64,000 bases of DNA, taken from positions 13,764,001 to 13,828,000 of the forward strand of contig OX597836.1 in assembly GCA_951406725.2 (NCBI GenBank). Direction: 5' to 3'. This DNA is from Octopus vulgaris. Taxonomy: Eukaryota. The notes under the pieces were generated by a model. That model was not told the DNA's origin, made no database searches, and was given only the letters and a program-made list of their open reading frames with translations. Positions 17,823 through 62,495 of this stretch are shown one piece after another (position 1 is the stretch's first letter; every line of letters starts with the position of its first letter). Position numbers and translations under genes: made by a program.

Positions 17823-17856
<34 letters not shown>

Positions 17857-17925: not shown

Positions 17926-18160
17926 TTCTTTCTACTAAAGGCACAAGGCCTGATATTATGTGGGGAGGGGACTAGTTGATTACATCAACCCCAGTGTTTC
18001 ACTGGTACTTAATTTATTGACCCGGAAAGGAAGAAAGGCAAAGTCAACCTTGGCGGAATTTGAACCCACGACGTGAAGACAGATGAAATACGGCTAAGCA
18101 TTTTGCCCGGCATGCTAATGATTCTGCCAGCTTGCCACCTTAATAATAATAATAATAATA

Positions 18161-20676: not shown

Positions 20677-20883
20677 CTCATAATTTGGAATGTCTATATC
20701 AACTAGAATTTGATCCGAATCTTCGATGATCTTTACTTCTTCTTCTGTGGGTTTGTTGGGCGACAAGGAGTCTTTACGGTATGGAGAGTAGCCAGATGGG
20801 GAGGTCTTGTCTTGCGACAAACTTCGTGGAAGAACTGTTGTAGCTATCCGGTCCAGTACACCAGATACCGTTTTCACAAATGC
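20677..20883 (-). CDS. SNX19: SNX19-like exon (post-PX): AFVKTVSGVLDRIATTVLPRS...DIDIPNYE
   Basis: ttcttgtag/gtaagt sites; 207 nt, phase 0 to 0; open frame overlaps ORF 20572..20877. Confidence 0.88.
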
Positions 20884-21618: not shown

Positions 21619-21744
21619 TTTATCAATCCGTGGCATGTTGATTTCACGGGTACGCCGCACATAAGCGATGTGTGCATCTCCCTCATAGGCAAGGAATTCC
21701 CTCAGTTCAGGCCCATTGGAGATGCTTTCTTTCTTTATTAAGTT
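21619..21744 (-). CDS. SNX19: SNX19-like exon (end of PX): NLIKKESISNGPELREFLAYEGDAHIAYVRRTREINMPRIDK
   Basis: ttcttccag/gtaagc sites; 126 nt, phase 0 to 0; matches the SNX19-type 'EFLA...DA.IA(F/Y)V....RIDK' motif. Confidence 0.92.
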
Positions 21745-23399: not shown

Positions 23400-23497
23400 C
23401 TTCAAGTAGTTGTCAAGAAATTTCCTCCGCTGAGTGACATTCTCCTGGTCCATGTTACCAAACAGCGAATGCTTCCATCCTTTTGGTCCTTTGATAT
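23400..23497 (-). CDS. SNX19: SNX19-like exon (PX domain): (D)IKGPKGWKHSLFGNMDQENVTQRRKFLDNYLK
   Basis: ttattcag/gtatga sites; 98 nt, phase 1 to 0; resembles SNX19 'VKGP..LF..LPFGNMD.D.VE.RK..LE.FLK' as I recall it. Not in the ORF track in this frame. Confidence 0.9.
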
Positions 23498-24644
23498 CTG
23501 AATAATTGAAAAAAGAAAAAAAAAATGAAAGAAAAAAATAATAAAAAGAGAAAAATCAGGAGTTAAATTTGAATAGGCGTGGCTGTGTGGTAAGAAGCTT
23601 ACTTCCCAACCACACAGTTCCAGGTTCAGTTCCATTGCATAGCATCTTGGACAAGTGTCTACTACTGTAGTTTCAAACTGACTAAAGACTAATGAGTGGA
23701 TTTGGTAGACAGAAACTGAAAGAAGCCTGTTTTTTGTGTGTGTGTGTGTTCACAAACCACCACTTGACAACTGGTGTTGGTGTGTTTACATCCCTATCAC
23801 TTAGCAGTTCAACAAAGGAGACTGATAGAATAAGTACCAAACTTTTAAAAAATAATACAAGTACTGGGTTCAATTTATTTGACTAAAATTCTTCAGCATG
23901 ATGCCCCAGCATGGCCAGAGTCTAATGACTTGAAACAAGTAAAAAAAAAAAAGAAGCTATATGTTGCTGTTGTGTCCCACCCACCCGAAGTGGGGTCTTG
24001 TTCAAGCTCATATGTCTATGGTGCATTGGTCAGCTAAGGTCAGTTGGTCAAACATTATAAACAATATACTTTAATGGGACCCTCTACTGCACACCACCAA
24101 TCTGATCAACTCCCCATCATTGCTCCTTTAATCCTTTGGCAGGGAGATGATTTCTTTAAAAAAGCCTTTTATCTTTTTACTTGTCTCAGTCACTGAACTG
24201 CAGCCATGCTGAGCCACTGCCTTGAAGGGTTTAGCCAAACAAATTGACCCCAGGACTTATTTTTAAAGTCAGGTACTTGTTCTAACAGTCTCTTACGCTG
24301 AGACCACTGTGTTATGGGGACATAAACAAACAAACACCAGTTGTCAAGTGGTGATGGAGAACAAACACAAAAACGCACTTTCCATTTACCAAATTCACTC
24401 AGAAGATATTGGTCAACTTGGAGCTACAGTAAAAGATATTTGTCCAAGGTGCCATGCAGTGGGATTGAACATGAAACCAAATCATTGCAAAGTGAGCTTC
24501 CTAACCAGAAAGCCATGCTGGTGGAGTGATTATTTTTAGAAAATTTACAAAAAAACACTACATGTTTAAACAAATCATTTAGTCATATACAAAAAGCAAA
24601 AAAAACATGATAATTTGCTCAGCAATTGTGTGTTTTAATATAAT

Positions 24645-25255
24645 CCCTTCTACTAAAAGCACAAGACCTGAAATTTGTGGGGAGGGGACGAGTCGATTAC
24701 ATCGGCTCCAGTGTTCCACTGGTGCTTAATTTATTGACCCCAAAAGGATGAAAGGCAAAGTCGACCTTAGCAGAATTTGAACTCAGAACGTAAAGACAGG
24801 CGAAATACTGCTAAGCAATGCTAGCTCGCCACCTTGTGTGTTATAATATAAGGGTTTCAGATTTTAGCACAAAGCCAGGAATTTCAGTGGTAGGAGATAG
24901 TCAATTATATCAACCCCAGCGTTAAACTTGTATATATTTCATTGACTCCAAAAAGAAGAAAGGCAAAGTCGACTTCAGTAGGATTTGAACTCAAAACAAA
25001 GCGCTAGAAGGAAATGCTGCTTAGCATTTTGTCATACGTGCTAACAATTCTGCCAGTTTACTGCCTTCAGTGGTTTCAAACATTTGCACAAGGCCAGCAA
25101 TTTTAGGGAAGAGGATTAGTAAACAGTAGATACATCAACTCCAGTATTCAACTGGTTCTTGCTTTATCAACTCTGAAAGAATGAAAGGCAAAGCCAACCT
25201 CAGAGGAATTTGAACTCGGAATGCAGAGAGTCATAAGAAATGCTGTAAAGCACTT
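24645..25255 (-). mobile_element. Three tandem Nin-domain SINE copies
   Basis: Repeated AAAGGCAAAGTCGAC...TTTGAACTC blocks about 210-230 bp apart. Confidence 0.7.
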
Positions 25256-26185
25256 TATACAACCCTCATATTTATCTCCTCTATGTACTGCATCACTGCG
25301 TCCACAATTTAAATGCGGTTGTTTTGCATACTATCTATATCTATCTCCATGCCTCATCTTTGCTCTAAAAACCCAAGCACATACTGCCATATGCTCTATT
25401 CTGTTCAATGGAGCATGTATCCATCAGTCACAAATTTTTCAAGCTTCTTCTTCAAAAAGCCTATTTTGCCTTTTGAAAAGGCAGAAGCAGGACAAATTCC
25501 TCCTGGTCCTTTCCAAGATAATTTTCTCAGGCAAGAAGGCAATCTCTTTTGTTACGCATGTCTTTCAATGCTTTTTCCTTTGTCTGGAATTGACCTGTAT
25601 TCTATTCAAGATTTCTTTTTGGCTAGTGACACTAGCAAAGGACCAATTACTGTTGTTGTAATTGTTGTTGGGGTTTTGGACAATGTTGTATATAAGTGTG
25701 CAGTTTTTGCTTATCACATAGTGAATTGCTTAAACTAATAATCCTATTCATTGAGTTATAATTTTTATTTTTGCCTTTCTCTTTTTAGGTTTTTCATCTG
25801 CTATTAAAAATTTTAGGTGTGCATTCATTACTGATGACCGAAGCATGTGACAGGCTGTGCTGCATTATATGTTACCAGTAGCACTCAAGAGCAACTTGAC
25901 ATAATGTGTGAATGTGCGTGTGAGAGAGAGAAAGAGAGAGGAAAAGTGAAAGGGTGTCTTGTGTGTGTGTATGCATGAATGCTTGTATGCATATGAGATG
26001 CATCAGAAGGCAAACAATACACAAACAGGCCTTGTACTAACTGCACTGAGCGAGAGAGATAAACAAGACATCGTCCTTCTTGAAGTTGACAAGAAACAAC
26101 GTCATCATTGTAGAACTGAAATAGAAGGAAAAAAACCAAAACCAAAACACTTCTAATGCATAAGGGAAAAGCATGAGAGAGAGAG

Positions 26186-26244
<59 letters not shown>

Positions 26245-26490
26245 ATGTGTGTGTGTGTGTGTGTGTTTTTGGGTGTGTGTGTACATGTGTGTGCATCTTT
26301 ATGGTGGGAATATATTACTATTTTTTCCTGTCTTTTTTCTCAGTGAGTGTCAGTCTAAATTGGTAACACACGAATACTTGTCACTTGTAATAATTTTATG
26401 TCCATGAAATAAGTGGAAAAGTAAAAATGAAAACAGGTCTTCTGTTCCCTGGAGGCTGCTACAGTGGCAGTGAGGAAGAGGTGATGAAAA

Positions 26491-26888
26491 CTAGCAGAAT
26501 CGCCTGGCGTTGCTCGGGTTTGTTTGTTTTTCGACCCTTTAGAATTGGAATTTTTGAAAAGTAAAACTTTTGCATTATGTTGCTTGTTATTCTCTTTCGG
26601 TGAACATTTTTCTGGTTGAAATACACCGAAAAATGGCAACACAGCAGTCAAAAAATCGTAAAAAATAGGGATTTTCATAGAAAAAAAGCACCCTTTTGAG
26701 GTAAATAATTTTTGGTGTTAACATGGTCCGATTTGAATTTTTTCTTCTAGAGAATGAAGAGCAAGCCTTCTTCTATCATGCTCTCAATTTTGGTCAACTT
26801 GCACAGAAGGGTCTCGAAGGAGATAGTGTTAGTTGAAGGCTACCAAACCTACCATACACAGACAACTTCAACTTTATATAGAGAGAGA
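26491..26888 (-). mobile_element. Non-autonomous Helitron
   Basis: On the minus strand: 5' TC start, subterminal GC-rich hairpin (CCCGAGCAACGCCAGG), 3' CTAG, inserted between A and T, no TSD. Confidence 0.75.
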
Positions 26889-27049
26889 TAATGGGGAGTA
26901 AAACACATAATTCAAAAGATGAAAAACATTTAATTACACAACATAAATAAGGGTGATCCATCCACAAAGAGTGTGGAGCTTCCACACCTTGTTATAATGA
27001 GGATATCCCATAGTTTTGATCACCTTTCCTCTCATCACCTTCTGCAAAA

Positions 27050-28795
27050 TGAAGTTCCAAGAATTTGCCCAAGAGGATCTTCAGGTGAACCACACAAAGC
27101 TTCTCACACCCAGTCAGGCCAGCAGTTCCTAATAGCTGGGTATATAGGCTTCTGGTGTTTGAATTTTGCCAAGCCAGCAATCTACCATTTCTACTTATTC
27201 CAGATAATCTTCTTCCAGGAATTTGTCCCTTATATTCTGTCAGGGTCAGTGGTTCTTAATACTGATGTGTAATAGACTAACAGTGCTTGTTTATTTTACC
27301 AAGCAAACAATTCACCATTTGTGTTTATTCCAGATAATTTTTCAGGAATTTCGCTGTGAGTATTTTCAGGTGAACCATGAAGTCCCCTATGTCCTGTTGG
27401 GCACGGGGGTAGGTAGTCGTTCTTAATATTGATGTGTAATAGACTCATGGTGCTTGTTTTTACCAAACCAGTAATCCACCATTTGTCTTTATTCCAGATA
27501 ATCTTTGCTTCTCTTTTCTTCCAGGGATTTGCCTGTAAGGGTCTTTAGGTGGACCATGAAGACCCCTATATCCTGACAGGGTTAGTGGTTTTTAACACAG
27601 CTGCGTATACAGACTTGTGGTGTTTGTTTTTACCAAGCCAGCAATCCACATAATTTTGGCTTTCTTCCAGGGATTTGCCTGTAAGGGACCATGAAGACGG
27701 GTTGAGCTGGCAGAAATGTTAGCACGCCAAGCGAAATGCTTAGCGGTATTTCATCTGCCGCTACATTCCGAGTTCAAATTCTGCCAAGGTCGACTTTACC
27801 TTTCATCCTTTCGGGGTCGATTAAATAAGTACCAGTTATGCACTGAGGTCAATATAATCGACTTAATCCGTTTGTCTGTTCTTGTTTGTCCTCCCTGCGT
27901 TTAGCCCCTTGTGGGCAGTAAAGAAATAGGTGAACGATCAAGACCCCTATATCCTGACAGGGTCAGAGGTTTTTAACACAGCTGCATATACAGACTTGTG
28001 GTGTTTGTTTTTACCAAGCCAGCAATCCACATAATCTTTGCTTCTCTCTTCTTCCAGGGATTTACCTGTAAGGGTCTTTAGGTGGACCATGAAGACCCCT
28101 ATATCCTGACAGGGTTAGTGGTTTTTAACACAGCTGTGTATACAGACTTGTGGTGTTTGTTTTTACCAAACAATCAATCCACATAATCTTTGCTTCTCTC
28201 TTCTTCCAGGTACTTGCGTTTAGCCCCTTGTGGGTAGTAAAGAAATAGGTGAACCATCAAGACCCCTATATCCTGACAGGGTTGGTGGTTTTTAACACAG
28301 CTGTGTATACAGACTTGTGTTTGTTTTTACCAAACCATCAATCCACATAATCTTTGCTTCTCTCTTCTTCCAGGTACTTGTGTTTAGCCCCTTGTGAGTA
28401 GTAAAGAAATAGGTGAACCATCGAGACCCCTATATCCTGACAGGGTTAGTGGTTTTTAACACAGCTGTGTATACAGACTTGTGGTGTTTGTTTTTACCAA
28501 ATCAGCAATCCACATAATCTTTGCTTCTCTCTTCTTCCAGGTACTTGCCTGTAAGTCTTCATGGTCCACCTAAAGACCCTTATATCCTGACAGGGTTAGA
28601 GGTTTTTAACACAGCTGTGTATACAGACTTGTGGTGCTTGTTTTTACCAAGCCAGCAATCCACACAATCTTTGCTTCTCTCTTCTTCCATGTACTTGCCC
28701 ATAAGGTCTTTAGGTGGACCATGAAGACCCCTAGTGGTTTTTAGCACAGCTGTGTATACAGACTTGTGGTGCTTGTTTTTACCAAGCCAGCACTC
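27050..28795. repeat. Tandem array of ~135-180 bp units (about 10), interrupted by a Nin-SINE at 27700-27930
   Basis: Recurring GACCCCTATATCCTGACAGGGTTAGTGGTTTTTAACACAGCTG...TCTCTTCTTCCAG; unit starts ~27373, 27553, 27932, 28085, 28251, 28414, 28567 and 28717, with degenerate units to the left. Confidence 0.92.
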
Positions 28796-29352
28796 AACTA
28801 TTTCGGGCTGTCCTATACAATCTGTACCTGTCACCTCAATCATTATCACAGTTATTTGTCTTGTCACCTGTCAAATTATGACTGTCCACTGTTAATAATT
28901 GTGTCTGATTAATTATCATAGTTTTTTTTTTGTTTTGTTCAACTGTTTATCTTTTATTCATTTATTGATAATTGCTTTTTGTGTTTACAGACATTTTCAA
29001 ACATCTTGCAACAATATAACCTTTGTGATTAGTACCTCCACCAGCTTCCTCTGAGGTGGCCACATAGAAACCATTAATAACAAACTGTAGCAAGATGGAT
29101 GTTTGTAATGGCTGTGTGGTTATGAAGCTTACTTTGTAACCTCATGATTTCAGGTTCAGTCACACAGTGCAGCACCATGGGCAAGTGCCTTCTACTATAT
29201 ACCCAGGTCAACCAAAGGTTTCTGAGTGAATTAGTTAGGCAGAAAATGTATGGAAGCCTGCCATGTAATATATATATATATATATTGATAAAACCGTAAG
29301 ACAACAAAAGAAAGAAAGAAACCTCGATATTATGTAAATAGAGGAATTTATC

Positions 29353-29560
29353 TGTAAATGTAATATGTGACAATTATTCGGTAGCCAAGATAAAACTCCG
29401 AGTTTCGGATGCCGAAGTGGAAATCCATGCAGCCATCTCTTCAGTTATCTGTCCATTCCGATGGCCAGATAACTGAAGAGATGGTGGCGTGGATTTCCGC
29501 CTCGGCATCCGAAACTCGGAGTTTTATCTTGGCTACCGAATAATTGTCACATATTACAGT

Positions 29561-29564
<4 letters not shown>
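29353..29564. mobile_element. Fold-back with 104-bp near-perfect arms and 4-nt loop, Penelope-like
   Basis: 29353-29456 is reverse-complementary to 29461-29564 with few mismatches; loop TCCG; (TA)n directly to the right. Confidence 0.85.
29464..29533 (+). ncRNA. Type-I hammerhead-like motif (mirror copy on the minus strand at ~29384-29453)
   Basis: GCCAGATAA-CTGAAGA-GATG...CATC-C-GAAA-CTCGGAG-TT-TTATCTTGGC: stem I AGATAA/TTATCT, stem II GATG/CATC with an extra C before GAAA, GUU triplet. Confidence 0.6.
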
Positions 29565-29602
<38 letters not shown>

Positions 29603-29832
29603 CCTTGCCTTCGAAACGTGGATTAGTTGAAAGAGGGACAACTGAAGAAGGGAATATTCTTTATGTTGTATGTTTCGTTTCTGTTTTTTTTTTTTCGTTG
29701 TTCGAAAAAAAGTTCGTTTTTCTGAGTTTTTGTTTCCATTTCTCATTGCGTTAAATGTTTCTTTGATGTCCTGTACCCATATATGCATGTATATATATGT
29801 ATGTATGTATATATGCATATATTTATGTTATT

Positions 29833-29868
<36 letters not shown>

Positions 29869-30909
29869 TTTAATATACATAATTATAAAAGAGCAACTAA
29901 TAGTTTCATGCTTTAACATACATTAAATTGGCAGATTTATATAACATACCATGTACCTTTTGTAATTATGTATATTAAATTATGTTTATCCTTCACTTTT
30001 TGGAGTATCTTGTTTGTTGATCCTTCCTATAATGGAACTGTAAACTCTGTGTGTGTGTGTGTGTGTGTAATGCTTGTTTTTATGTTCAGTTATAATAAAA
30101 ACAATTATACATTAATCTGATGAGTTGCCCCATGCTTTTGTAGAGTTCAAATTTATACGTAAAAAGCACCCACTACACTCACGGAGTGGTTGGCGTTAGG
30201 AAGGGCATCCAGCTGTAGAAACATTGCCAGATTAGACTGGAGCCTGGTGCAGCCTTCTGGCTTCCCAGAACCCCGGTCGAACCGTCCAACCCATGCTAGC
30301 ATGGAGAACGGACGTTAAACGACGATGATGATGATGATATACTAGAATGCTGTTGACTGACTTCAAATTTTGGGACAGTTAAGAGGGGAACATATAAACA
30401 TACAACCTTTACTCAAATACTTTTGTGAACATCAAAGCACAAGAAAAACTATTTCCAAAACTACTAACAAAGCCATGATGTGTTTTTTAAGTAATAACCC
30501 CCACCTTCACAAATGAAAATAAGCACATAAATGATCAACCTGAACTTACCTGCTACCTACATTCTTTTATGAAATAAAGCTGACACACCAAATTACTAAG
30601 GGCTTAAATACAGGGCTTCCTACCTTTGACCTTTACACTGTCAAAGCAAAAGATTAACTCCAATAATACCAAAAGCAACAAAAATACTGTCACACCTTGT
30701 GCCCACCTGATGAAAGAGAGACACCTACAGGCATGAATAAATTCTAAACAATATCATAACCCCAAAATTCAATCAATGAAATACTAAATACCCAATTATC
30801 ACCCCACTCAAAACCACACACCCAAAGATGATTTTAACTCGGAAGAGACTTACATAAGTCTCTTAGGCAAGTGCTTTGTACGTGATGCCAATATGGATGC
30901 ATTGTATGT

Positions 30910-31240
30910 GGCGCATGGCTCAGTGGTTAGAGCGTCGAGCTTACGATCGTGAGGTTGTCAGCTCGAATCCCAGACCAGGCTGCGCGTTGTGTTCTTGAGC
31001 AAGGCACTTTATTTCACGTTGCTCCAGTTCACTCAGCTGTAGAAATGAGTTGCAACATCACTGGTGCCAAGCTGTATCGACCTTTGTCTTTCCCTTGGAT
31101 AACACTGGTGGCGTGGAGAGGGGAGGCTGGTATGCATGGGCGACTGCTGGTCTTCCATAAACAACCTCGCCCGGACTTGTGTCTAGGAGGGTAACTTTCT
31201 AGGTGCAATCCCATGGTCTGTGTCGTGACCGAAGGGGGTC
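30910..31240 (+). mobile_element. tRNA-derived Meta/MESC-type SINE
   Basis: GGCGCATGGCTCAGTGGTTAGAGCG head; 'TGTGTTCTTGAGCAAG.CACTTTA' central domain. Related copies at 13511-13880 (+), 20340-20572 (-), 39075-39310 (-) and 48583-49180 (two tandem, +). Confidence 0.75.
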
Positions 31241-31326
31241 TCCGTATGTGGCACCAGCATGGGTGCTTTTTATATGGTACCAGTACCTGCCGAGTGGCCT
31301 GCAAGGCAAGGATGTCTCAACTGACA

Positions 31327-31690
31327 GAGGGAGAGGAACTGGGAGATGTGGCCATGTACCAGGTGAGAGATTGGGGTATGATAGGGAGTCGGGGGCAGCT
31401 GTCTTACTAGAGAGGAACTACATGGATGCTCCAGTTGAAAGATGGATGTGACCCGTGATATTCTGATGAAATGGGAGAAAGAAATGCCTGAAATTTTGGT
31501 GAGGTTATAGGTTGAGGAGGGAGAGGAACTTGGAGATGTGGCCATGTACCAGGTGAGAGATTGGGGTATGATAGTGAATCAAGGGTAGCTGTCTTACTAG
31601 GGTGGAACTACATGGATACTCCAGTAGGATAAGGTAGTGAAGGAAAGTGGGAGAAAGAAATGCCTGAAATTTTGGTGAGGTTATAGGTCG
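31327..31690. repeat. Tandem duplication of ~190 bp
   Basis: GAGGGAGAGGAACT...GAAATTTTGGTGAGGTTATAGGT occurs twice. Confidence 0.85.
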
Positions 31691-31870
31691 AGTACATCGA
31701 CCCCAGTGTTTCACTGGTATTTAATTTATTGACTCCAAAAGGATGAAAGGCAAAGTCAACCTTAGCGGAATTTGAACTCAGAACGTAATGCCGGACGGAA
31801 CAACGCTAAGCATTTCGTCTAGCATGCTAACAATTCTGCCAGCTTGCTGCCTCAACAACAACTACTACTG

Positions 31871-31914
<44 letters not shown>

Positions 31915-32789
31915 GCTACTACTATCACTACAGATTGTGCAGAATAAAGAACAGCTCAAGCAAAAAAAAAAAACAAAATGCTGTTATTAATGCATTTGGA
32001 AAATTGCCTCTTCTCTGACTCCTTCCTCATCTATCAGCTGGTTGGCCAGTTCTCCACCTGCCAGTCAGTCTGTCTGTCTGTCTGTCTGCCCATTCTATTC
32101 TATTCCATATTCCACAAATGCCCTTTCTACCCCTCTCTCTTCTCTCTCTCCCTCCCTCTCTCACAGCCATCCAAACCAAATTTTAATTGCTTGATGCAGA
32201 AAAAAACAAAAAACAAACAGGAAAAACAAGAGGAAAAAATACCTAAAAGATATATAAAAAAAAACAACAACACAAAAATAAAACCAAAACAGTAACCCAG
32301 AAATCTAGGTTAAGCTTACATGACAGATACTGTTGTTTTTGTGTGTGTGTAAGTTAGCTAGAGATAAGCTGAGAGACAACAGACTCTTTAGGGTAATGTC
32401 TATCTATTCCACTCTCTCCACACACCACACACACACCTTTAGTTACCCTTGGTAGTTTTTGGGTGGATGTTTATGGCTGGTTGGTTGGTTTGTTGGCTGG
32501 CTGACTGGCTCAGTTTGGCCTGGCTTGGCTTGGCTTGGCTTGGTTTGGCTATCACTAGTTGAGGATGATTGGTCTGGTGTTAGTTATATTTAGTTGATCT
32601 CTTAGATAAATAATTATCCCCACTCTCCACACCCCAATACAACTGTCTGGAATTAGCCAGAGAGAGAGAGAAGGAGAGAGATCTGCTCCCCGACAGCAGA
32701 AAATAGCCATTCCTGGTTACCCACTACAAGAAGGAGATTATTAACCATGGGTCGTTGAGCTGGCATTAAGGTGGTATGGTAAGCTGGCA

Positions 32790-33446
32790 TTGTCAGTGCA
32801 TCAGACAAAATGCTTAGTGGCACTATTTTCAGCTCCTTATATTCCGAGTTCAAATCCTGCTGAGGTTGGCTTTGCCTTTTCATCCTTTTGGGGGCAATAA
32901 AATAAAATACATGTCGAGTACTGGGGATGGATGTGTAATCGGCTTACCCCACCCTGCTAAAATTACTGGCTTTGTACCAAAATTTGAAACCATTAAGATG
33001 GCAAACTGGTGGGATTGTTAGTGCATCGAACAAAATGCTTTGTAGAATTTCTTCCAACTTTATGTTCCAAGGTTGATTTTGCCTTTCATCCTCTCAGGGT
33101 CAATAAAACAAGTACCCATTGAACACTGGGGTTGATGTAAGTGGCTTACTCCATCATGCTAAAATTACTGGCCTTGTGCCAAAATTGGAAACCACAAAGG
33201 CCCCGAACTGGTAGAATTGTTAGCACATCAGACAAAATGTTTAGCGACATTTCTTCCTGCTCTCTATGCTCTGAGTTCAAATCCTGCTGAAGTTGACTTT
33301 GCCTTTTATCCAAACATTCCTGAAAGTTTCATCTGAATCCATCCAGTAGTTCTTGAGATATCTTGTCCACAGACAAACAAACAAACAAACACAACTAAAA
33401 ACAATACCTCCACCTTCGCTAGGGTGGAGGTAATAACAATAACAAT

Positions 33447-33479
<33 letters not shown>

Positions 33480-33910
33480 CCTTTCTACTGGCAACACAAG
33501 GCCTCAAATTTGGGGGAAGGGATTAAGTCGATTACATCGACCCCAATGCATAACTGCCTTTCATCCTTTTGGGGTCGATTAAATAAGTACCAAAGTCAAC
33601 CCCAGTGGAGTTTGAACTCAGAACGTAGCGGCAGACAAAATACCACTAAGCATTTCACCTGGCATGCAAACGATTCTGGTAGCTCACCACCCTAATAATA
33701 ATAATAATAATAATAATGATAATAATAATAATAAAGGTGTTAGAGCACTGAAGGCCAGATGTAGTAACTGGGACTTTATTTAATTGACCCCAAAAGGATG
33801 AAAGGCAAAGTCAACCTCGGCAGAATTTGGAATCAGATCGTAAAGACAGACAAAATGCCGCTAAGTATTTTGCTCAGTGTGCTAACATTTCTGCCAGCTC
33901 GCCACCTTAA
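32790..33910. mobile_element. Nin-domain SINE cluster (plus-strand copies followed by minus-strand copies)
   Basis: Three partial plus copies at 32790-33310 and two minus copies at 33480-33910. Confidence 0.7.
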
Positions 33911-35077
33911 TAATAATAATAACAATAATAATAATTACTGATTTCACAGAATAAAGATTAGCTCAATAAGGAAAAAAGAAGAAATGCAATGTTATAATTG
34001 CATTTGGAAAACTGTCTTGTCTCCAACTGTTTTCCTTCTCTACTGGTCAGTTATCAGATAAGATCAAAGCAATTAAGACAAGGATTGGACAGGTCACAGG
34101 TCAGGACTGGCTGTTTATGGTGAAATCAAACATGCAACATCAAATTAAAAAAAAAAAACGTGTTATCCTCAGGGTAGTTACTGTAAGGGAGAAAATCATT
34201 TTTGTCAAGTCATGGGAAGGTTAGAAATTTGAATTTTCAATTGAATAAGCACAGAAATGGTTGTGTGGTAAGAAGCTTGCTTCCCTACCACATGGATCTG
34301 GGTTCAGTCCCATTGTTTGGTACCTTGGGCAAGTGTCTTCTACTAGTCCCACGCCAACCAAACCCTTGTGAGTGGATCTGGCAGATGGAAACTGAAAGAA
34401 GCCTGTCATGTATCTGTGTGTGTGCGTGTGTGTGCGTGTGCGTTTTTGTTTCACCACCACTTGACATCTTGTGTTGGTTTGTTTACATCCCCATAACTTA
34501 GCAGAATAAGTAACAGACTTAAAAAAACATCAAGTACTGGAGTTGATTTGTTTGACAAAATCCTTCAAGGCAGAGCTCCAGCTGGCCGTAGTCCAATGAC
34601 TAAAAATAATATAAAGCAGTAACAAAAATAATGATGCAGTGATTATTCTGTTCTTTTATTCTTTTACTTGTTTCAGTCGTTAGACTGCGGCCATGCTGGA
34701 GCACCGCCTCAACAGGTTTTAGTCAAAGAAATCAACCCAAGGACTTATTCTTTATAAACCTAATACTTATTCTATTGGTCTTTTTTGCCGACCCACTAAG
34801 TTACAGGAACATAAACAAACCAACATCAGTTGTCAAGTGATAGCGGGGGGAGGGACAAACACACACACACACACACAGATATATATCATCATCATCATCG
34901 TTTAACATCCATCTTTTATGTATGCATGGGTACAACAGTTGACAAGAGCTGGCCAGGTAGAAAATCTATCCTAGGCTATTGTGTCTGTTTTGGCAGGGAT
35001 TCTATGGCTGGAGGCCCTTCCAAACACCAACCACTCTGAAGAGTGGACTCAGTGCTTTTTACATATATATATATATA

Positions 35078-35136
<59 letters not shown>

Positions 35137-37358
35137 ATACAACAGGTTTCTTTCAGTTTCTGTCTACCAAATCCACTCACGAGGTTTTGGTCTGTCCAAG
35201 GCTAAGTATCTGGCCCCCAAGTGTTCTTGTGTAATGTTCAAACTGACCGAGTCTGGCCTTTCATACCTACCCTACAATGTCATTCTAAACGAAAACAATT
35301 ATACTGTTGAAATCTCAAAACTATGAGATAATGCATGATTAAGTCAAGATGATGTGAACAAATAAGCATCTCATTTGACAGAAGGATCTGAATGCTAAAG
35401 GGTCGTTAAAAGAACGCTGAAGGTGACTTATGTAGATAGAGTAACAAACAATTTGGTACTCAAATGAGCAAATATTACCAGTGATAAGGAGCCTTATCAG
35501 CTGGTTTCAGAAAGATCATCCCAATAATGTGCTATGTTGTGTAGGACAGATGGACATGGGGGCTTGTAATCACTGGTGCTTATAGACATGGTACATGACG
35601 AGGGAGGTTAGATATAATCAAAACTGGACACAGGCAGCTAGCTCGTTGAAACTGGTCCAAAGTAGTCAAACATTATTGGGATATAATTATCTGTTTCTTT
35701 ACTACCCACAAGGGGCCAAACATAGAGGGAACAAACAAGGACAGACAAATGGATTAAGTCGATTACATCAACCCCAGTGTGTAATTGGTACTTAATTTAT
35801 CGCCTCTTGTAGGTAGTAAAGAAATAGGTACTTAATTTATCGACCCCGAAAGGATGAAAGGTAAAGTCAACCTCGGCGGAATTTGAACTCAGAACGTAAC
35901 GGCAGACGAAATACGGCTACACATTTTGGCCGGCGTACTAACGTTTCTGCCAGCTTGTCTTGGGATATAATTATCGAGGCAAAAGGTGCCCAAATATAGG
36001 CAATATTGATCAGAGATAATGAGATAATGACTATCATTGGCCATGATAAATAGAGGTGGGTGTTATTGGCTTGTGTGAGCATCACTGATAACCACTAACC
36101 AAAGTCACTATTAGCTTGATTTAGCTACACAAAGATAACATTTACCAGAGATGGGTGTGTGGTCATCATTAGTCATTTGATTAATGATGCCACACATGAG
36201 ACAGAAGAGAAGTTCGCATTTTGGTGGGGAAGAGGGGTTGGGAATAGGTGTGAGAGCAGGGGCCCTGGAGGGGAAGACAGTATATGTAACACCAAGAGGA
36301 GTGACAGAAGTGTCAGATGATCCTAGGGGTCAGTAGTATGCAACTCCAGAAGATCGAAAACCATTACAATAGTAATGGAATAGGTAGAGGGAAAGGGCAG
36401 CAGAGTCTGTGGACCAAAAGTTGGTGTATGTTGCTGATTGGGGGAGCTTGTACTTATTCTATAAGTATCTTTTGTCAAACTGCTATGCTACAGGGATATA
36501 AACAAACCAACACCAGTTTTCAAACAGTGGGGGGGTGGGAGTCATATACAAGCAAAAGACACAACAGACTTTCACACAGTTTCTGGTCCACAAATTTACT
36601 CACAAGGTGTTGATCAACCAAAGGCTATAGAAGAAGACGCTTAACCAAAGTGCTGTGCAGAAGGACTGAAATCATCTGGTTGCAAAATGAACTTCTTAAT
36701 CACACAACCAATCCTGCATCTGCAGTGATTGTGTTGGTTTGTTTACATCCCCATAACTTAGCAGTTTGGTAAAAGAGAACAGCTGAATAAGTAACAGACT
36801 TTAAAAACATCAAGTACCTGAGTTGATTTGTTTGACAAAACTTATTATTGTGTCTTTATGATACTTTGTCTGTCATGTCTGACCACAGGGTTCCACATCT
36901 CTCTTCATGGACATTCCGAAGACTAGGAATGGTCAAAGACGGACAGTAAGGAATAAAGGTTAACCAGAAATGCCTTGAGATGGCTTAGTGAGCGAAGAAC
37001 AACCGAATAACCAACTACAGACATAAATAGTCAGAAATAATTGGGAAAGATTATCAGAGATAAACAGAACATATTTAGAGACAGCAATAGAAAAAAAAAA
37101 TATGAAATAAAAAAAAAATAGATAAATAAATCCTAATGATAAGCAATGTGAACAAGAACCAACCAGAAACATGAGTGGCATAAAAGGATAAACAAACAAG
37201 AAACAAGCAGAGAGTTGTTAATCAGATATAGCTGGAGATAAACAGGATCTTTGTTTGGAATAATTCATGGCTGTGTGGTTAAGAGGCTTGCTTTGCAATC
37301 ATTTTGTTTCAGGTTCAGTCTCACTGTGTGCCACCCTGGGCAAGTTTTTTCTACTATA

Positions 37359-37531
37359 GGCGCAGGAGTGGTTGTGTGGTAAGTAGCTTGCTTACCAGCC
37401 ACATGGTTCCGGGTTCAGTCCTACTGCGTGGCACCTTGGGCAAGTGACTTCTACTATAGCCTTGGGCCGACCAAAGCCTTCTGAGTGGATTTGGTAGACG
37501 GAAACTGAAAGAAGCCCATCGTATATATGTG

Positions 37532-37571
<40 letters not shown>

Positions 37572-37775
37572 AGTGTGTGTGTGTTTGTGTGTCTGTCCCC
37601 CCAACCAATGCTGGTGTGTTTACGTCCCCGTCACTTAGCGGTTCGGCAAGAGAGATCGATAGAATAAGTACTAGGCTTACAAAGAATAAGCCTGGGTTGA
37701 TTTGCTTGACTCTAAAGGTGGTGCTCCAGCATGGCCGCAGTCAAATGACTGAAACAAATAAAAGAATAAAAGAAT
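37359..37775 (+). mobile_element. tRNA-derived CORE-type SINE, full length
   Basis: Starts GGCGCAGGAGTGG; same family as 16590-16992. Confidence 0.85.
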
Positions 37776-38507
37776 ATAGCCCTGGCCTAACCGATGCCTT
37801 GTGAGTGGATTTGGCAGACAGAAACTGGAAAAAACCCACCATATCATTTCACGTCTGTCTGTCCGTGTGTGTGCGTGCGCGCGTGCATGTGTGTGTATGT
37901 GTGCATGCTTGTGTATGTCTGTGACTATCTGTGTGTGTTTGCCTTCATTCCCCACCACCGTCTGACAACCGGTTTTAATTTTTTTATGACATCATAACTG
38001 TTTTTTTTTTTTTGGCAGTTTGGCAAAAAAGATCGAAATAACAAATAGTAGGCTTAAAAATATAAATACTGAGGTCAACTCATTCAGTTAAACACTTCAA
38101 GAAGGTGCCCCAGCATAGCCACAGTCCAATGACCAAAACACATAAATGATAAAAGATAAAGAGATTAAAGTACACTTAAGGAGATGGTGATGAGATGTGA
38201 ACATAAATAAACATCAAATCAATAACACCATTTGTCGAAATTTAAAGAATAAACCAGCAGTCCATATGGCCCCTGGGGATCCATATAAAATTTTTGAGGG
38301 TCCATGTAACAAAATAGTAAACTGGGGATCCACAACAGCTGGGTTTCTTTTTCTATCGTTTTACATAGGTCAGCTTAACAGAAGTAAATGCGGGGAAAAG
38401 CAAAATAGGAATTTTGAAAGGAGTTTCTAAAAACCTAGTTTTCAAACATCGGATGGCTTTAAGGGTCCACCAGAATAAAATAGTAATCAAAGGGATCTAT
38501 AGATAAA

Positions 38508-38926
38508 CGCGCAGGAGTAGCTGTGTGGTAGGTAGCTTGTTTACCAACCACATGGTTCCGGGTTCAGTCCCACTGCGTGGCACCTTGGGCAAGTGTCTTC
38601 TACTATAGCCTCGGGCCGACCAATGCCTTGTGAGTGGATTTGGTAGACGGAAACTGAAAGAAGCCCGTCGTATATATGTGTATATATATATATATATATA
38701 TGCGTGTGTGTGTTTGTGTCTGTGTTTGTCCTCCTAGCATTGCTTGACAACCGATGCTGGTGTGTTTATGTCCCCGTTACTTAGCGGTTCGGCAAAAGAG
38801 ACCGATAGAATAAGTACTGGGCTTACAAAAGAATAAGTCCCGGGGTCAAGTTGCTCGATTAAAGGCGGTGCTGCAGCATGGCCACAGTCAAAGGACTGAA
38901 ACAAGTAAAAGAATAAAAGAATAAAA
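38508..38926 (+). mobile_element. tRNA-derived CORE-type SINE, full length
   Basis: Same family; AATAAAAG-repeat tail. Confidence 0.85.
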
Positions 38927-39887
38927 ATGGTTTAGAGTCCCTGCAATAAACAGTTGTAGTCATGTAGGACACAGTAAGATGAGCAAATATAACTACTGTA
39001 AATCCTTGAGTATAGTTCGCCCTTAAGTAAGAAATAAGGGTTAACTAGAACTGCCTTGAGATGGCTTAGTGAGTGAGGAACAAATATTCTGTAAGGAGCA
39101 TAGGGCCAGTTTCCTCGTTTCTCTGGTGTATATATTCCTTCCAGGATGGGATGCCGGTCCATCTCAGGATTACTCGTTTTCATCAGCAAAATGGTCTGGA
39201 GCAAACTGAAATGAAGTGTTTTGCTCAAGAACACGGCACACCACCGGTCCAGGAATCGAAACCACAATCTTACTATTGTGAGTCCAACACTCTAACCACA
39301 GCCATGCACCTCAAGATTTCCATTAATGTGGACCGGATTAATTAGATGTGAACAAAAAAACAAAAGAAAAATGGTATTTATATTTTTTTAAATGATTTGG
39401 TCTGGAGGCATTCCAGGAGACATGAAATCAACTCAACTAATAATCAATAAATTAATTAGAATAATAACGATAAGCAGCAGGGAAAACATGGCATAAGTAC
39501 TTTCTGAGGAAGATAGAAAGGACAACGGACGTAATGTGGTTGATAACGAGAGGAATAAGATTTGGGGAGGGGTGGGGTTTAAGTGGGGTGGCAACAAACT
39601 AGATGGTTCTGAGAAGCAGAGCCCCCTCTAGTTATCCTCCTCTGCCTCGTCCTCATTTAACCTCTTCTTCGCTATGCTTGCATAAGTCTGACAGGATTTT
39701 GTTGAGGTAGATTTTCTATGGCTGGATGCCCTTTCTGTCACCAACCCTGAACTGTTTCCAAGCAAGTTAATAATATTTCCCCGTGATCAGACATTTTTCA
39801 TGAGAGATTAGAAGCGAACAGCATCGCTTGTATAACAGTGAGGCTCACTTACAGCCAACAAGTGATGTCAAGACAGGTTTACACACG

Positions 39888-39938
<51 letters not shown>

Positions 39939-41474
39939 CATCCAGTCCACACTGTAAAGTGATTGGCATTCGGAAGGACATCCAGCTCTAAAAACATGCC
40001 AAAACTGACTTTGCCTGTATTGGTGCCACATAAAAAGCTCTCAGTCCACTCTGTGGGGTGGTCAGTATTAGGAAGGGCATCCAGCCATAAAAGCCATGCC
40101 AAAACAGACACAGAAGTCTGGTGCAGTCTTCTGCCTGGCCAGCTCTTGTCAAACTGTCCAACCCATGCCAGCATGGAAGGCAGACATTAAGCGATGATGA
40201 TGATGATATATATACACAATGAACTATCAGTTTCTGTCTACCAAATCCACTTACAAGGCTTTGGTCAACCCAGGGCTATAGTAAAAAGACACTTGAACAA
40301 GGTGCCGCACATAGGGATTGAGCCAGAGACCACATGGGTGGAAAGCGAGGTTGTCAACCACAGTCACACATGTGCATCAACATTCTCATGCCAGGAATTG
40401 AACTCGAGTTGCATGGGGTAAAGCCAAGAATCATGCGCAGGGGTCAATAAGTTTGACTAAAACCCTTCAGTGTGTTGCCCCAGCTTGGCTGCAGGCCAAT
40501 AACCGGGGGGGGGGGGAAGCTCATAGGTAAAAGAGAAACAAAATAACTGGGTGGTCTTCTTTTGAAATGTAATTTCGGGCCGTCAGCATATGTAACATCA
40601 ATTATACGCCAGTCAATTAGATGTAGGTTAATGAAAACGTAAGCGACATCGAAAATAGAAAATGGCCTAAACTGAAAATAACAGCTTGTTACTTTATTAC
40701 TAAAGTGCTACAGCAAAAAGAATGCTTTTATTCAATCTACATCATAGGAATACAATTATACCATATATGTATATATACGCTATATTTAAATTATATACAG
40801 TACATGCTTGCTTATATGTGACTTTTAAGAATATATACAAAACAAAAAAAGTAGTAGGTGTGAGTGAGTAAAACTGGTAGGAAAAAACAGCAGCAGACAG
40901 GAGTTTTATTCACCAATTGCCATGGCTAAATAAACAGTCCGCAGAAAATATATAAAAAAAGAAAAGAAAGCCACCCAAAAAAAATTAAAAAATAAAGATA
41001 AAATGAAAACTATCGCACTTCCACAGACTTGCCATAGCAACAAGTTCACAGAAGCCGAAACCAAAGTAACAAAATAGCAACAACAAAAAAGTCATTGTTT
41101 GCCATTTATAAAGACTTTTCTTAAAGATATAATTACTACGACAGGTGGTTGGCGGGGGGGGGGGCAGTTCGTTTGCTGGGTTGGTTTTTAAGATTTGCTG
41201 GGGGTTTTTGCAGTTGTTTTTCTTTTTGTTTAGCTTCCTTGTGGGAGAGTTTTCTTACATAATAATCCTGTACAGATTATCCTGCACCTCTGTAAGTGGT
41301 AATTCCCTTCTTGCTATTTCCATGAATAAAGTGAGTGCCTTAACCCTTTTCTTACCATATTTCTGTTCAAATAGACTGCTTTTGTTTTAGTTCATTTTCA
41401 AAAATAGGGACAGGCCAATCAAAGTTTAGTGAGTAGATTTGGTACACGGAAACTGAAAGAAGCCCATTGTATAA

Positions 41475-41515
<41 letters not shown>

Positions 41516-41520
<5 letters not shown>

Positions 41521-41640
41521 AAGATGCTGGGATATTTTCCAACATTTCTTAACATGAAACCATTGGTAGCCTTAATTTACAAATAAAGAACTGATATCCA
41601 CCAATGCCGTGTTGAGCACTCATTTTCATCGTTCGACATT
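41516..41640 (+). mobile_element. 5'-truncated hammerhead/pLTR-like fragment in (TA)n
   Basis: Stem II ATGTTAAGA/TCTTAACAT, then GAAA-CCATTGG-TA-GCCTT and a tail similar to 9430-9510. Confidence 0.5.
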
Positions 41641-41668
41641 TATGTACGCATATATATATGTGTGTGTG

Positions 41669-41716
<48 letters not shown>

Positions 41717-41718
<2 letters not shown>

Positions 41719-42100
41719 CTCTTTTACTTGTTTCAGTCGTTTGACTATGGCCATGCTGGCGCACCGCCTTCAGTCAAGCAAATCGACCCCAGGGCTTATT
41801 CTTTGTAAGCCTAGTACTTATTCTATCCATCTCTTTTGCCAAACCACTAAGTTATGGAGACGTAAACACCCCAGCATCGGTTGTCAAATGATGTTGGTGG
41901 GGGACAAACAGAGACACACAAACACATATATAGACATATATAAGACGGGCTTCTTTCAGTTTCGGTCTACCAAATCCACTCACAAGGCTTTGGTTGGCTT
42001 GAGGCTATAGTAGAAGACACTTGCCCAAGGTGCCACGCAGTGGGACTGAACCCGGAACCATGTGGTTCATAAGCAAGCTACTTACCACGCAGCCACTCCT
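41717..42100 (-). mobile_element. tRNA-derived CORE-type SINE
   Basis: Same family, reverse orientation. Confidence 0.85.
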
Positions 42101-42121
42101 TGATTAATATATATATATTAA

Positions 42122-42315
42122 TCAAAGTGTACAGTATTATATATCCATTATTGCTGATCTTACCAACTACTTTCACACTAGCGGCTCAGTTATGTAATCC
42201 TATGCTCATCGGAGATGGCCATTATGGAATGAAATATGGTGACTGTTAAACCCCTTGTGCAAAACTGATTGATATAATCAGCTGTAATGGGTATATAATA
42301 CTGTACACTTCGATG
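42122..42315. repeat. Imperfect fold-back beside (TA)n
   Basis: AAGTGTACAGTATTATATATCCATTA versus TAATGGGTATATAATACTGTACACTT. Confidence 0.65.
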
Positions 42316-43015
42316 TATATACTCATTCTGCTGACAGATATGAGAGCATTTTTTCTGTACTTAGTCACCTTACACACACACATATACTATGTATGTATGT
42401 ATTGTATTGTATATGTATGTATATATGGTATATGTATGTATGTATGTATTGTATATGTATGTATATATGGTATATGTATGTATGTATGTATTGTATATGT
42501 ATGTATGTATATCTATGTGTGTATGTGTGCCCCACCACCACCACCACTTGACAGCTGATGTTGGTGTGTTTACATCCCTGTAACTTAGCAGTTCAGTAAT
42601 AGAGACTGATAGAATAAGTACCAGGCTGAAAAAAATAAGAAGTACTGGGGTCAAACCATACGGCTAAAAATTCTTCAAGACGTGCCCCAGCATGGCCGCA
42701 GTCTGACGACTGTAACAAGTGAAAGATAAAAGATTGATTATTAAGCTGGGCTTTGGAAGAAAAATTAGCAGGAAATTTTGATGAAAGGTTTTAATTTTGA
42801 CCCCTTTTTTAAAGAAGTTTGTATTATAGAATCTGGGACAGTGATGAGCAGCTTGGGGTCAACAGGGTTTATTGATCTTTTAAGTCTTTTATCTTTCTTC
42901 GTGATAGTATCGAATGCGCTTTGTGTACTTTGAGTTCCAGAGTTAAAAACGGTTTATTTGTTATCTTTTGAAGTTGCTAAAATCAATATCTTATAATGTA
43001 AACGTAAGTATTTAC

Positions 43016-43148
43016 CTTTTAAGCATTTCTTATAGACGTTCCTTTCTTCAAGTTTCTGTTGTAGCGTGCAGAATTCTCGAAACCTGCGTTTCACTTTGCC
43101 AGTTTTTGTAGAAAGTTCCCCATTTTCAGACACATATGACGCATCATA
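43016..43148 (-). CDS. SNX19: SNX19-like sorting nexin, internal exon (PX domain): YDASYVSENGELSTKTGKVKRRFREFCTLQQKLEERNVYKKCLK
   Basis: ttttacag acceptor and gtaaat donor; PX 'RR(Y/F)REF..LQ.KLEE' motif; phase-1 end fits the exon at 23400-23497. Most 5' exon I could identify. Confidence 0.9.
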
Positions 43149-43237
43149 CTGTAAAAACAAATAAAAAAAGACACATATATATATTTAGATATTGAGATAG
43201 GATTTTGATACAAGCTATGACACACGACTAACATTAA

Positions 43238-61800: not shown

Positions 61801-61932
61801 GTTGGATCAAGGGATCCGTTTTAAGGTTCCATTATTGCAGGTATATATTGATTAGAGAGAAAATCAAAACCAAGGCAGAACGAGTATCTCAAGTCATTGA
61901 GCATAATTTAGTTAGGGTACGGTGAATTTGAA

Positions 61933-62008
61933 GTCTTACAGCCGTTTCTGGAATAACCCAAGCGATAGGTTAGCATGTACATGCACTGAGTATTCCATCA
62001 TCAGAGAC
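61933..62008 (-). ncRNA. Minimal type-I hammerhead ribozyme motif with intact core
   Basis: GUCU-CUGAUGA-[UGGAAUA...UAUUCCA]-GAAA-CGGCUG-UA-AGAC: stem I GUCU/AGAC, 7-bp stem II base, short near-palindromic stem III, GUA cleavage triplet. Confidence 0.8.
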
Positions 62009-62240
62009 AAGGTATGAATATTTTAGACAAGGAAAATTTACAGTTTACAAGAAATAAAATTCACAGCTTATAAGGAATAAAATAGAAGAATAAAGGAGTA
62101 AAATAGAAGAATATTGGCAGGAGAATAATGTAGTTCTTCCAACTACTTTTACTCTTTATTCTACTATTTCATTCTTTATAAACTGTGAATTTAATTTCTT
62201 GTAAACTGTAAATTTTCCCTGTCTAAAATATTCATACTTT

Positions 62241-62316
62241 GTCTCTGATGGTGGAATGCCCAATGCATGAACATGCTAACCTACCACTTGGGCTATCCCA
62301 GAAATAGCTGTAAGAC
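62241..62316 (+). ncRNA. Degenerate type-I hammerhead motif (mirror copy)
   Basis: GTCT-CTGATGG-TGGAAT...ATCCCA-GAAA-TAGCTG-TA-AGAC; the core has A9 changed to G, so probably inactive. Confidence 0.65.
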
Positions 62317-62400
62317 TTCAAATTCACCAAATTACCCTAACTAAATTATGCTCAATGACTTGAAATACTCGTTCTGTCTTGAATTTTTATTTTCCCTCTA

Positions 62401-62495
<95 letters not shown>

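What the first reader, a model, noticed from the sequence alone, without database searches (positions are those of the whole stretch)
61851..62402. 550-bp fold-back with mirror-image minimal hammerhead ribozymes
Seen: ~250-bp inverted arms; the minus-strand arm has an intact type-I core (CUGAUGA, 7-bp stem II base, GAAA, GUA site, stem I GUCU/AGAC) and a near-palindromic short stem III (ACGGCUGU). Established: such minimal hammerheads are typical of Penelope-like element pLTRs and can act as dimers. Inference: the intact copy is on the SNX19-like sense strand, so if this position is intronic it could cleave pre-mRNA unless masked by arm-to-arm pairing.
Basis: partly seen in the sequence, partly recalled or inferred. 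Interest (0 to 1): 0.72.

Follow-up and report, generated by a model that had tools for sequence, protein, structure and literature searches.

The report
Fold-back Penelope retroelement remnant in octopus
The hairpin and its hammerhead ribozyme motif are real, but they look like the usual head-to-head leftover of two truncated Penelope-like retrotransposon ends in an octopus intron, and the ribozyme is predicted to be locked inside the hairpin rather than cutting the host RNA.

Summary
Observation confirmed. 61851-62402 is a fold-back with ~260-bp arms (88% complementary). The minus-strand arm has a complete type I minimal hammerhead core (cut 61937/61936; 0 of 300 shuffled windows match as well). 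The other arm has A9>G and a broken helix II. The host is an octopus, and the site is most likely intronic in a minus-strand PXA-PX-Nexin_C (SNX19-like) gene. Contigs from three DNA runs show the arm is a dispersed family with clustered 3' ends, ragged 5' ends and other head-to-head junctions. This locus has a junction palindrome, a ~30-bp tail on one arm and (TA)n at the other end: the published 'inverted copy plus tail' Penelope-like insertion. No RT/GIY-YIG parent could be linked, so family membership is inferred. Pre-mRNA cleavage is unlikely: the two motifs lie on opposite strands, so no cis dimer can form; helix III barely forms alone; forcing the active fold costs ~100 kcal/mol in the hairpin. 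One weak lead: all 3 listed inverted junctions at other loci end one arm within 11 nt of the cut site. The scan noted the same pattern before in shark-type DNA. Ordinary; low interest.

The parts
61851..62129 (-). Arm A: 5'-truncated 3' end of a Penelope-like family (AT-rich leader, hammerhead, 67-82 nt to the family's common 3' ends)
   Evidence: family depth rises at 61851 and loose ends cluster at 61851/61860/61866; distances
61933..62008 (-). Type I minimal hammerhead motif with intact core: stem I 62008-62005/61936-61933, CUGAUGA 62004-61998, helix II base 61997-61991/61955-61949 with extended upper part, GAAA 61948-61945, self-complementary ACGGCUGU 61945-61938, predicted cut between 61937 and 61936
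61822..61850 (-). Probable optional PLE 'tail', on this arm only; outer limit not fixed (may reach ~61801 and include a GGATC/GATCC stem-loop at 61804-61817)
   Evidence: consensus of 36 loose ends before 61851 in run X1 matches 61822-61850 at 23 of 29 (counted by eye; binomial 2e-7 at p=0.32); row 61836 T>A in 5 contigs in each of three runs agrees; stem-loop
62130..62146 (.). Small palindrome at the head-to-head junction (6-bp stem, 5-nt loop)
   Evidence: junction palindromes are described for PLEs in PMC3846280
62143..62402 (+). Arm B: second 5'-truncated copy, inverted, no tail, running into (TA)n
62241..62316 (+). Defective hammerhead copy (A9>G at 62251, A.C mismatches in helix II, U15.2.G16.2)
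   Evidence: not found by the descriptor
62403..62482 (.). (TA)n microsatellite, likely target site
   Evidence: no non-AT target-site duplication of >=6 bp
10787..43154 (-). Host gene context: nine coding exon matches (residues 801-1300) of a PXA-PX-Nexin_C sorting nexin; the fold-back lies in the intron upstream of the exon at 43154

Best explanation
A dead-on-arrival insertion of a Penelope-like element (PLE) family of octopuses. Shown: two 5'-truncated copies of the same family end are joined head to head, 3' ends outward, one with a ~30-bp tail and the other ending in (TA)n, with a small palindrome at the junction; each carries the family's type I minimal hammerhead. Inferred: a PLE RT/GIY-YIG protein acting in trans nicked an AT-rich/(TA)n site and made both arms in one event from one donor lineage (priming on both strands, or self-priming at the junction palindrome); the two 3' ends reflect two RT start sites. 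The arms then decayed neutrally. In the parent the hammerhead would process tandem transcripts as a dimer or with protein help. At this locus it is a passenger: on the pre-mRNA it is buried in a ~260-bp duplex, has no sense-strand partner and should not cleave. The likelier RNA-level consequence is an intronic dsRNA (ADAR or small-RNA substrate; inference, untested).
For: Family: 10,612, 8,975 and 2,242 contigs were laid on 61300-62142 in three DNA runs of three organisms (most on a neighbouring repeat); summed depth over 61880-62082 is 14k-75k against 365-645 at 61822-61850 and 33-103 for single listed contigs; about 100 contigs per run differ at single arm positions. 3' ends cluster (loose ends at 61851/61860/61866), the 5' side fades over 62083-62140, and three opposite-strand joints with other breakpoints (61930>62113, 61940>62024, 61947>62058) occur in two runs. 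Both arms share four bases where 93-99% of family depth differs (61899, 61902, 61911, 62052), so one donor lineage. Listed majority letters at 61989 and 61963 turn two G.U pairs of upper helix II into Watson-Crick pairs. Literature: inverted 5'-truncated copy, optional 30-40-bp tail, (TA)n bias (PMC8557442); head-to-head junction palindromes and a 31-bp tail on one inverted pLTR (PMC3846280); paired min-HHRs 100-700 bp apart on opposite strands, helix I 4-5 bp, helix II 7-8 bp, palindromic 15.2-16.2, no monomer cleavage (PMC4209133); PLE protein cleaves and extends both strands at AT-rich DNA, two RT start sites define the tail (PMC11167929); Hydra-clade HHRs lie roughly 90-200 nt from the 3' end, with (TA)n targets and similar stem III (File S1/S2). 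Masking: stems I-III probability 0.0000 in context, ddG 100.5 kcal/mol; stem III 0.0004 even in isolated 62020-61920.
Against: No RT or GIY-YIG ORF could be tied to the family (no genome held; arms closed in all three sense frames). The majority letter at 61952 (C, ~92%) would leave an A.C mismatch in lower helix II unless its partner also differs; only 40 of 198 difference rows were shown, so covariation was not established. The 10.1-11.1 pair is U-A, not the conserved G-C. No target-site duplication was found. The tail match was counted by eye on a consensus with 0.55 agreement. Summed depth is not a copy number. The window holds at least four other fold-backs without hammerheads and unrelated to this one, so a more general fold-back process may act in this genome. 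Folding energies are predictions and ignore splicing, proteins and editing.
Confidence: 0.82

Rival explanations
1. A non-autonomous hammerhead-bearing retroposon (SINE-like or retrozyme-like PLE derivative) that is itself the mobile unit, with no ORF upstream; inverted pairs form as in PLEs.
For: Family depth fades near 62110-62140 and no ORF was seen. A preprint derives animal retrozymes from pLTRs (10.64898/2026.07.22.740005).
Against: No tandem direct repeat here. The 5' decline is gradual and loose ends continue behind 62095 with 0.63-0.70 agreement, as expected for truncation of a longer element; the laid stretch ended at 62142, so the 5' extent was not seen.
Confidence: 0.08
2. A MITE or foldback DNA transposon (two long TIRs), or a DNA-level inverted duplication of one solo copy; the hammerhead is incidental.
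For: Long inverted arms; TA-rich ends; both arms share donor-specific bases (also expected after a local duplication); other fold-backs in the window.
Against: Junctions differ between loci, ends are asymmetric (tail on one side), 5' ends are ragged, no TSD. The hammerhead is beyond chance (0 of 300) and oriented toward the outer ends as in PLEs.
Confidence: 0.07
3. One reading: the intact ribozyme cleaves the SNX19-like pre-mRNA or is a host-retained switch gated by arm pairing.
For: Intact core on the sense strand of an intron; the antisense-strand copy is the broken one; stem II forms with probability >0.9 in isolation; 13 of the 19 arm differences that give G.U do so on the sense-strand RNA versus 6 on the other (p~0.17, not significant).
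Against: No cis dimer partner; masking costs ~100 kcal/mol and the masking strand is made first. Even arm A alone (62130-61800) gives stem II probability ~0.03. Arms differ at 11 of 76 ribozyme positions versus 13 of 180 outside (p=0.10): no sign of extra conservation. Published metazoan min-HHRs are inactive as monomers and weak as dimers; the Anolis one needs protein and showed no RNA-seq ends at the cut.
Confidence: 0.03

Closest known systems
Complex insertions of EN+ Penelope-like elements (inverted 5'-truncated pLTR, junction palindrome, optional tail; Arkhipova et al. 2013 PMC3846280; Craig et al. 2021 PMC8557442)
   Same: Head-to-head arms, tail on one arm, junction palindrome, (TA)n end, ragged 5' ends across copies.
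   Different: Only the non-coding ends are present; no ORF, no direct pLTR, no TSD found.
Metazoan PLE minimal hammerheads (Cervera and de la Pena 2014, PMC4209133)
   Same: Type I, helix I 4 bp, helix II base 7 bp, palindromic minimal helix III; opposite-strand pairs 100-700 bp apart were already reported in Schistosoma.
   Different: 49-nt helix II insert with a structured extension (outside the 7-17-nt spacer descriptor of Craig et al. and missed by Rfam); U-A at 10.1-11.1. Long inserts have precedent (PLE-X1_sMoe).
Hydra-clade PLEs, incl. Hydra-1_Obim and Penelope-13_HM (Craig et al. 2021, Files S1/S2)
   Same: HHR close to the 3' end in AT-rich sequence, (TA)n preference, stem III of the acag..ctgt-a type in several, inverted copy carrying an HHR on both strands (Penelope-13_HM).
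   Different: The listed Hydra-1_oBim HHR has a different sequence and a short loop II; clade is defined by protein, which is missing here.
Naiad_Ovul / Naiad_Obim (octopus Naiads, 'HHR_half_core')
   Same: Same genus, (TA)n target, CTGATGA near the 3' end.
   Different: Their 3' ends do not resemble this arm (by eye); two arm motifs had 0 hits in the supplement.
Non-LTR retrozymes (Cervera and de la Pena 2020, PMC7229834)
   Same: Short, non-coding, AT-rich, type I HHR, molluscan examples.
   Different: Retrozymes are direct tandem repeats; this is an inverted pair.

Membership tests
EN+ Penelope-like element | Linked ORF with PLE-type RT and GIY-YIG endonuclease | not testable with these tools
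   No genome held; none in the arms; no true relatives in metagenome or viral scans
EN+ Penelope-like element | Type I hammerhead near the 3' end, sense orientation | tested here: met
   (sense direction inferred from the fixed versus ragged ends)
EN+ Penelope-like element | Dispersed copies with common 3' ends and variable 5' truncation | tested here: met
   tables 2, 5, 7, 8
EN+ Penelope-like element | Head-to-head inverted copy with junction palindrome | tested here: met
   other inverted joints
EN+ Penelope-like element | Optional 30-40-bp tail on one end | tested here: met
   61822-61850 matches the loose-end consensus at 23 of 29 by eye, minority depth; absent from the right arm; outer limit not fixed
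EN+ Penelope-like element | AT-rich/(TA)n target; TSD where discernible | tested here: inconclusive
   (TA)n at the right end; no non-AT TSD
EN+ Penelope-like element | Partial tandem pLTR-ORF-pLTR source copies | not testable with these tools
   needs an assembly
Type I minimal hammerhead ribozyme | Core CUGANGA, GAAA, NUH with stems I-III | tested here: met
   arm A; arm B fails at A9
Type I minimal hammerhead ribozyme | G10.1-C11.1 pair | tested here: not met
   U-A; can be read as G-C with one extra base on each side, as in several File S2 entries
Type I minimal hammerhead ribozyme | Covariation among copies | tested here: inconclusive
   two G.U to Watson-Crick changes and one A-U to A.C among listed majority letters; 40 of 198 rows shown; no per-copy sequences
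Type I minimal hammerhead ribozyme | Self-cleavage | not testable with these tools
   bench assay; only contigs, no raw RNA reads, were listed
MITE / foldback DNA transposon | Fixed two-TIR unit with constant TSD | tested here: not met
   variable junctions, asymmetric ends, no TSD
Non-LTR retrozyme | Direct tandem HHR repeats | tested here: not met
   (this locus only)
Published octopus PLEs (Naiad_Ovul, Naiad_Obim, Naiad_Omin, Hydra-1_Obim) | Sequence match of the 3' end | tested here: not met
   0 hits for two motifs in the whole supplement (line breaks or divergence can hide a hit); 3' ends of three Naiads and the Hydra-1_oBim HHR row read by eye; no alignment run
Hydra clade | RT/EN phylogeny | not testable with these tools
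   no protein linked

The most novel reading that the evidence does not exclude
This octopus family carries a long-helix-II hammerhead that standard descriptors miss, and its genomic copies record in vivo self-cleavage: cDNA often stops at the 5' end of cleaved RNA, so short arms end at the cut site. All 3 listed opposite-strand joints end one arm at 61930, 61940 or 61947 (cut 61936/61937), and 6 of 13 listed joints in the arm start within 61927-61947 (p~0.001 if uniform; post hoc, 15 of 67 joints shown plus some of table 5c, and alignment drop-off at arm A's own differences could mimic it). If real, hundreds of insertions would give genomic evidence on whether PLE hammerheads cut during retrotransposition.
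Probability: 0.12. Interest if true: 0.6.

Novelty: new member of a known kind. Interest (0 to 1): 0.18.

Why it matters
As a locus it matters little: it is the documented PLE insertion pattern, decayed, in an intron. Two smaller points have value. An abundant octopus hammerhead-bearing family with a 49-nt helix II is invisible to Rfam and to short-spacer descriptors, so such motifs are probably undercounted. And the family's many truncation points offer a cheap test of an open question: whether PLE hammerheads cleave in vivo (PMC11167929 found cleavage dispensable in vitro and no RNA-seq ends at the cut).

Tried and rejected
Rfam: 0 hits at gathering; at E<=10 only generic hairpin/miRNA matches and a weak U6 match, no hammerhead. 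Own genome not held. Metagenome pattern scan: 26 loci; 0 of 26 had stem I of 3 bp or more, best BLAST to the arm E=0.01, so all treated as chance. Viral scan: 0. Run search: no RNA holder listed; all 24 rows were contigs; X15 is only guessed to be RNA, so nothing is concluded on expression, cleavage or editing (its A>G excess comes with A>C and A>T excess). I laid 4 of 24 runs, on one arm plus flank only. Pfam on six ORF pieces: nothing significant. Similarity of the arm to five other fold-backs: none convincing (lowest 2 and 5 of 200 shuffles in 20 comparisons; U6 fold-back 84-168 of 200). Naiad 'HHR_half_core' lead rejected. Four inner helix II rows were mis-indexed by me and dropped; corrected (GC, CG, AU, UA, loop GUAC). 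Strand bias of G.U pairs and excess divergence inside the ribozyme: not significant. The missing right end of the flanking 61318-61800 repeat was not found to the right of the fold-back (best 15 of 28). Lunse et al. 2017 not held; known only through a review passage. Earlier-findings searches by sequence and place: nothing. Repbase and Dfam could not be searched, so the family may already be named. Paper searches were made; none listed a description of this family.

Full report
Observation. The fold-back is real: arms 61921-62106/62143-62328 (88%) and 61866-61919/62333-62386 (93%), one self-match over 61842-62412, 24 substitutions between the arms over 61851-62106, and a minus-strand fold of -365.6 kcal/mol, z -39. 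A type I hammerhead descriptor run on both strands of the 64 kb finds one hit, on the minus strand at 62008-61933: stem I 4 bp, CUGAUGA, stem II 7 bp, GAAA, self-complementary ACGGCUGU, GUA. 14 of 300 shuffled windows gave a loose hit and 0 of 300 one with stems as long as observed. The mirror copy on the plus strand has A9>G and A.C mismatches in helix II. Helix II spans 49 nt, which may be why Rfam finds no hammerhead. Both arms' helix III octamers are self-complementary through G.U pairs (duplex -9.7 and -7.3 kcal/mol), as a dimer would need.

Host. An exon fragment matched Octopus sinensis LOC115223689, with Pfam PXA, PX and Nexin_C; SNX19-like by domain content, since no RGS is listed (the naming rule is recalled). 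Residues 801-1300 map to nine minus-strand stretches at 43154-10787 with 86-100% identity. Residues 1-800 give only weak or low-complexity matches in the window, and the exon at 43154 is preceded by a pyrimidine tract and AG. The element therefore most likely lies in an intron of more than 20 kb, with the intact motif on the sense strand. The upstream exon itself is outside the window and was not seen.

The arm is a dispersed family. I laid 4 of 24 listed runs (three DNA runs of organisms A, B and E, one guessed RNA run; all contigs) on 61300-62142 at 80% likeness. In the DNA runs, summed depth over 61880-62082 is 14,000-75,000, against 365-645 at 61822-61850 and 33-103 for single listed contigs; about 100 contigs per run differ at single arm positions. 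Hundreds of copies is my rough inference; the tool warns that depth is no copy number. Loose ends cluster at 61851, 61860 and 61866, while the other side fades over 62083-62140: common 3' ends, ragged 5' ends, in the direction of the ribozyme. Three opposite-strand joints (61930>62113, 61940>62024, 61947>62058), each in two runs, show head-to-head pairs with other breakpoints at other loci. At 61899, 61902, 61911 and 62052 both arms carry the same base while 93-99% of family depth differs, so both arms came from one donor lineage. The consensus of 36 loose ends before 61851 matches this locus's 61822-61850 at 23 of 29 (by eye; binomial 2e-7), and a listed difference at 61836 agrees: a minority of copies carries this extension. 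The right arm lacks it and runs into (TA)n. A 6-bp palindrome sits at the junction, 62130-62146. No non-AT TSD was found. I looked for the tail after an earlier scan note used the phrase 'inverted copy plus tail'; the papers had already described it.

Structure across copies. Only 40 of 198 difference rows were shown. None of them is at a core position. Majority letters at 61989 and 61963 make two upper helix II pairs Watson-Crick, while C at 61952 would give A.C in lower helix II unless its partner also differs. Covariation is therefore not established.

How it most likely works. Shown: two truncated family ends joined head to head, a tail on one, (TA)n at the other. From the literature: this is the standard complex PLE insertion (PMC8557442, passages; PMC3846280, passages). 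The Anolis PLE protein cleaves and extends both strands at AT-rich DNA and starts RT at two internal sites that define the tail (PMC11167929, parts 1-2 of 4). Opposite-strand pairs of minimal hammerheads 100-700 bp apart were already reported, with the same helix sizes; the monomer tested was inactive and dimers weak (PMC4209133, parts 1-2 of 4; review passage PMC6765202). Inferred: one trans-mobilised insertion, by two-strand priming or self-priming at the junction, then neutral decay. The position of the motif 67-82 nt from the common 3' ends, the (TA)n end and the stem III resemble Hydra-clade entries (supplement Files S1/S2), but clade needs the protein. It is not the published octopus Naiads or Hydra-1_Obim (motif search and reading by eye, no alignment; I read 3 of 59 supplement parts).

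Would it cut the host RNA? Probably not. The two motifs are on opposite strands, so neither transcript holds a cis dimer, and no other sense copy is in the window. On the pre-mRNA the antisense of arm B is made first. Computed pairing probabilities of stems I, II and III are 0.0000 in the whole element and in a snapshot ending at 61923, at 37 and 20 C; forcing the active fold costs 100-117 kcal/mol. In the isolated 62020-61920 fragment stem II forms (six of seven pairs >0.9) but stem III does not (0.0004); in arm A alone stem II falls to 0.03. The ribozyme region is not better conserved between arms than its flanks (11 of 76 versus 13 of 180 differences). A long intronic duplex in a cephalopod is more plausibly an ADAR or small-RNA substrate (my knowledge; search listing only; untested).

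Rivals. A MITE or local inverted duplication (0.07) is disfavoured by variable junctions, asymmetric ends and ragged 5' ends, though four other hammerhead-free fold-backs in the window show that fold-backs are common here. A stand-alone non-autonomous retroposon or retrozyme (0.08; PMC7229834 passages; preprint 10.64898/2026.07.22.740005 parts 1-2 of 5) cannot be excluded without the parent, but there is no tandem repeat. A functional host ribozyme is least likely (0.03).

Novelty. The architecture is known; the scan noted it in shark-type windows (unchecked notes). The family was not found in seven paper searches or in one supplement; Repbase, Dfam and preprint supplements could not be seen and may name it. 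PMC6962438 (passages) reports 235 Rfam hammerhead_1 loci in giant squid; PMC8969392 (passages) gives the PLE and MITE criteria. The boldest reading left is that truncation points cluster at the cut site: 3 of 3 listed inverted joints within 11 nt, 6 of 13 listed joints within 61927-61947. The sample is small, selected by the tool, post hoc, and exposed to alignment artefact, so I give it 0.12. Verdict: new member of a known kind, interest 0.18.

Noticed in passing
window 60414-60641: Fold-back (93-96%) of a U6 snRNA 3'-end fragment (~30 nt) plus ~70 nt of downstream sequence. Same layout as the finding: 3' ends outward, left arm into (TA)n, right arm with ~50 extra nt before (TA)n. May be a U6 chimera inserted by PLE-like machinery, or a local inverted duplication. 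No significant similarity to the hammerhead arm.
   Followed up: partly
window 1-100, 29327-29591, 49236-49391: Three more single-copy (in window) fold-backs, 81-86%, without hammerhead; 29327-29591 has TA runs near both ends.
   Followed up: partly
window 22198-22719: Inverted pair of a common dispersed repeat around a unique spacer, 77%.
   Followed up: no
window 61318-61800: A far more abundant repeat (summed depth up to 1.7 million) with a sharp left end; it stops at 61800, where other copies continue. It looks like a truncated MITE (recalled resemblance), and its missing end is not to the right of the fold-back.
   Followed up: partly
joints at 61930-61948: Joints at other loci, including all three listed inverted ones, start close to the predicted cut site; some same-strand joints may be helix II length variants.
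   Followed up: partly
window 63117-63500 and 12178-12531: ORF remnants resembling LINE RT C-termini (recalled; no significant Pfam hit).
   Followed up: no
window 63573-63973 and at least seven other sites (e.g. 16586-16998, 38509-38931, 47607-48045): Abundant ~400-bp dispersed repeat, 80-92% between copies, SINE-like (label recalled).
   Followed up: no
window 58696-59214; 58083-58583; 27227-28812: 26-bp tandem array, a ~253-bp tandem duplication, and a longer-period tandem array.
   Followed up: no
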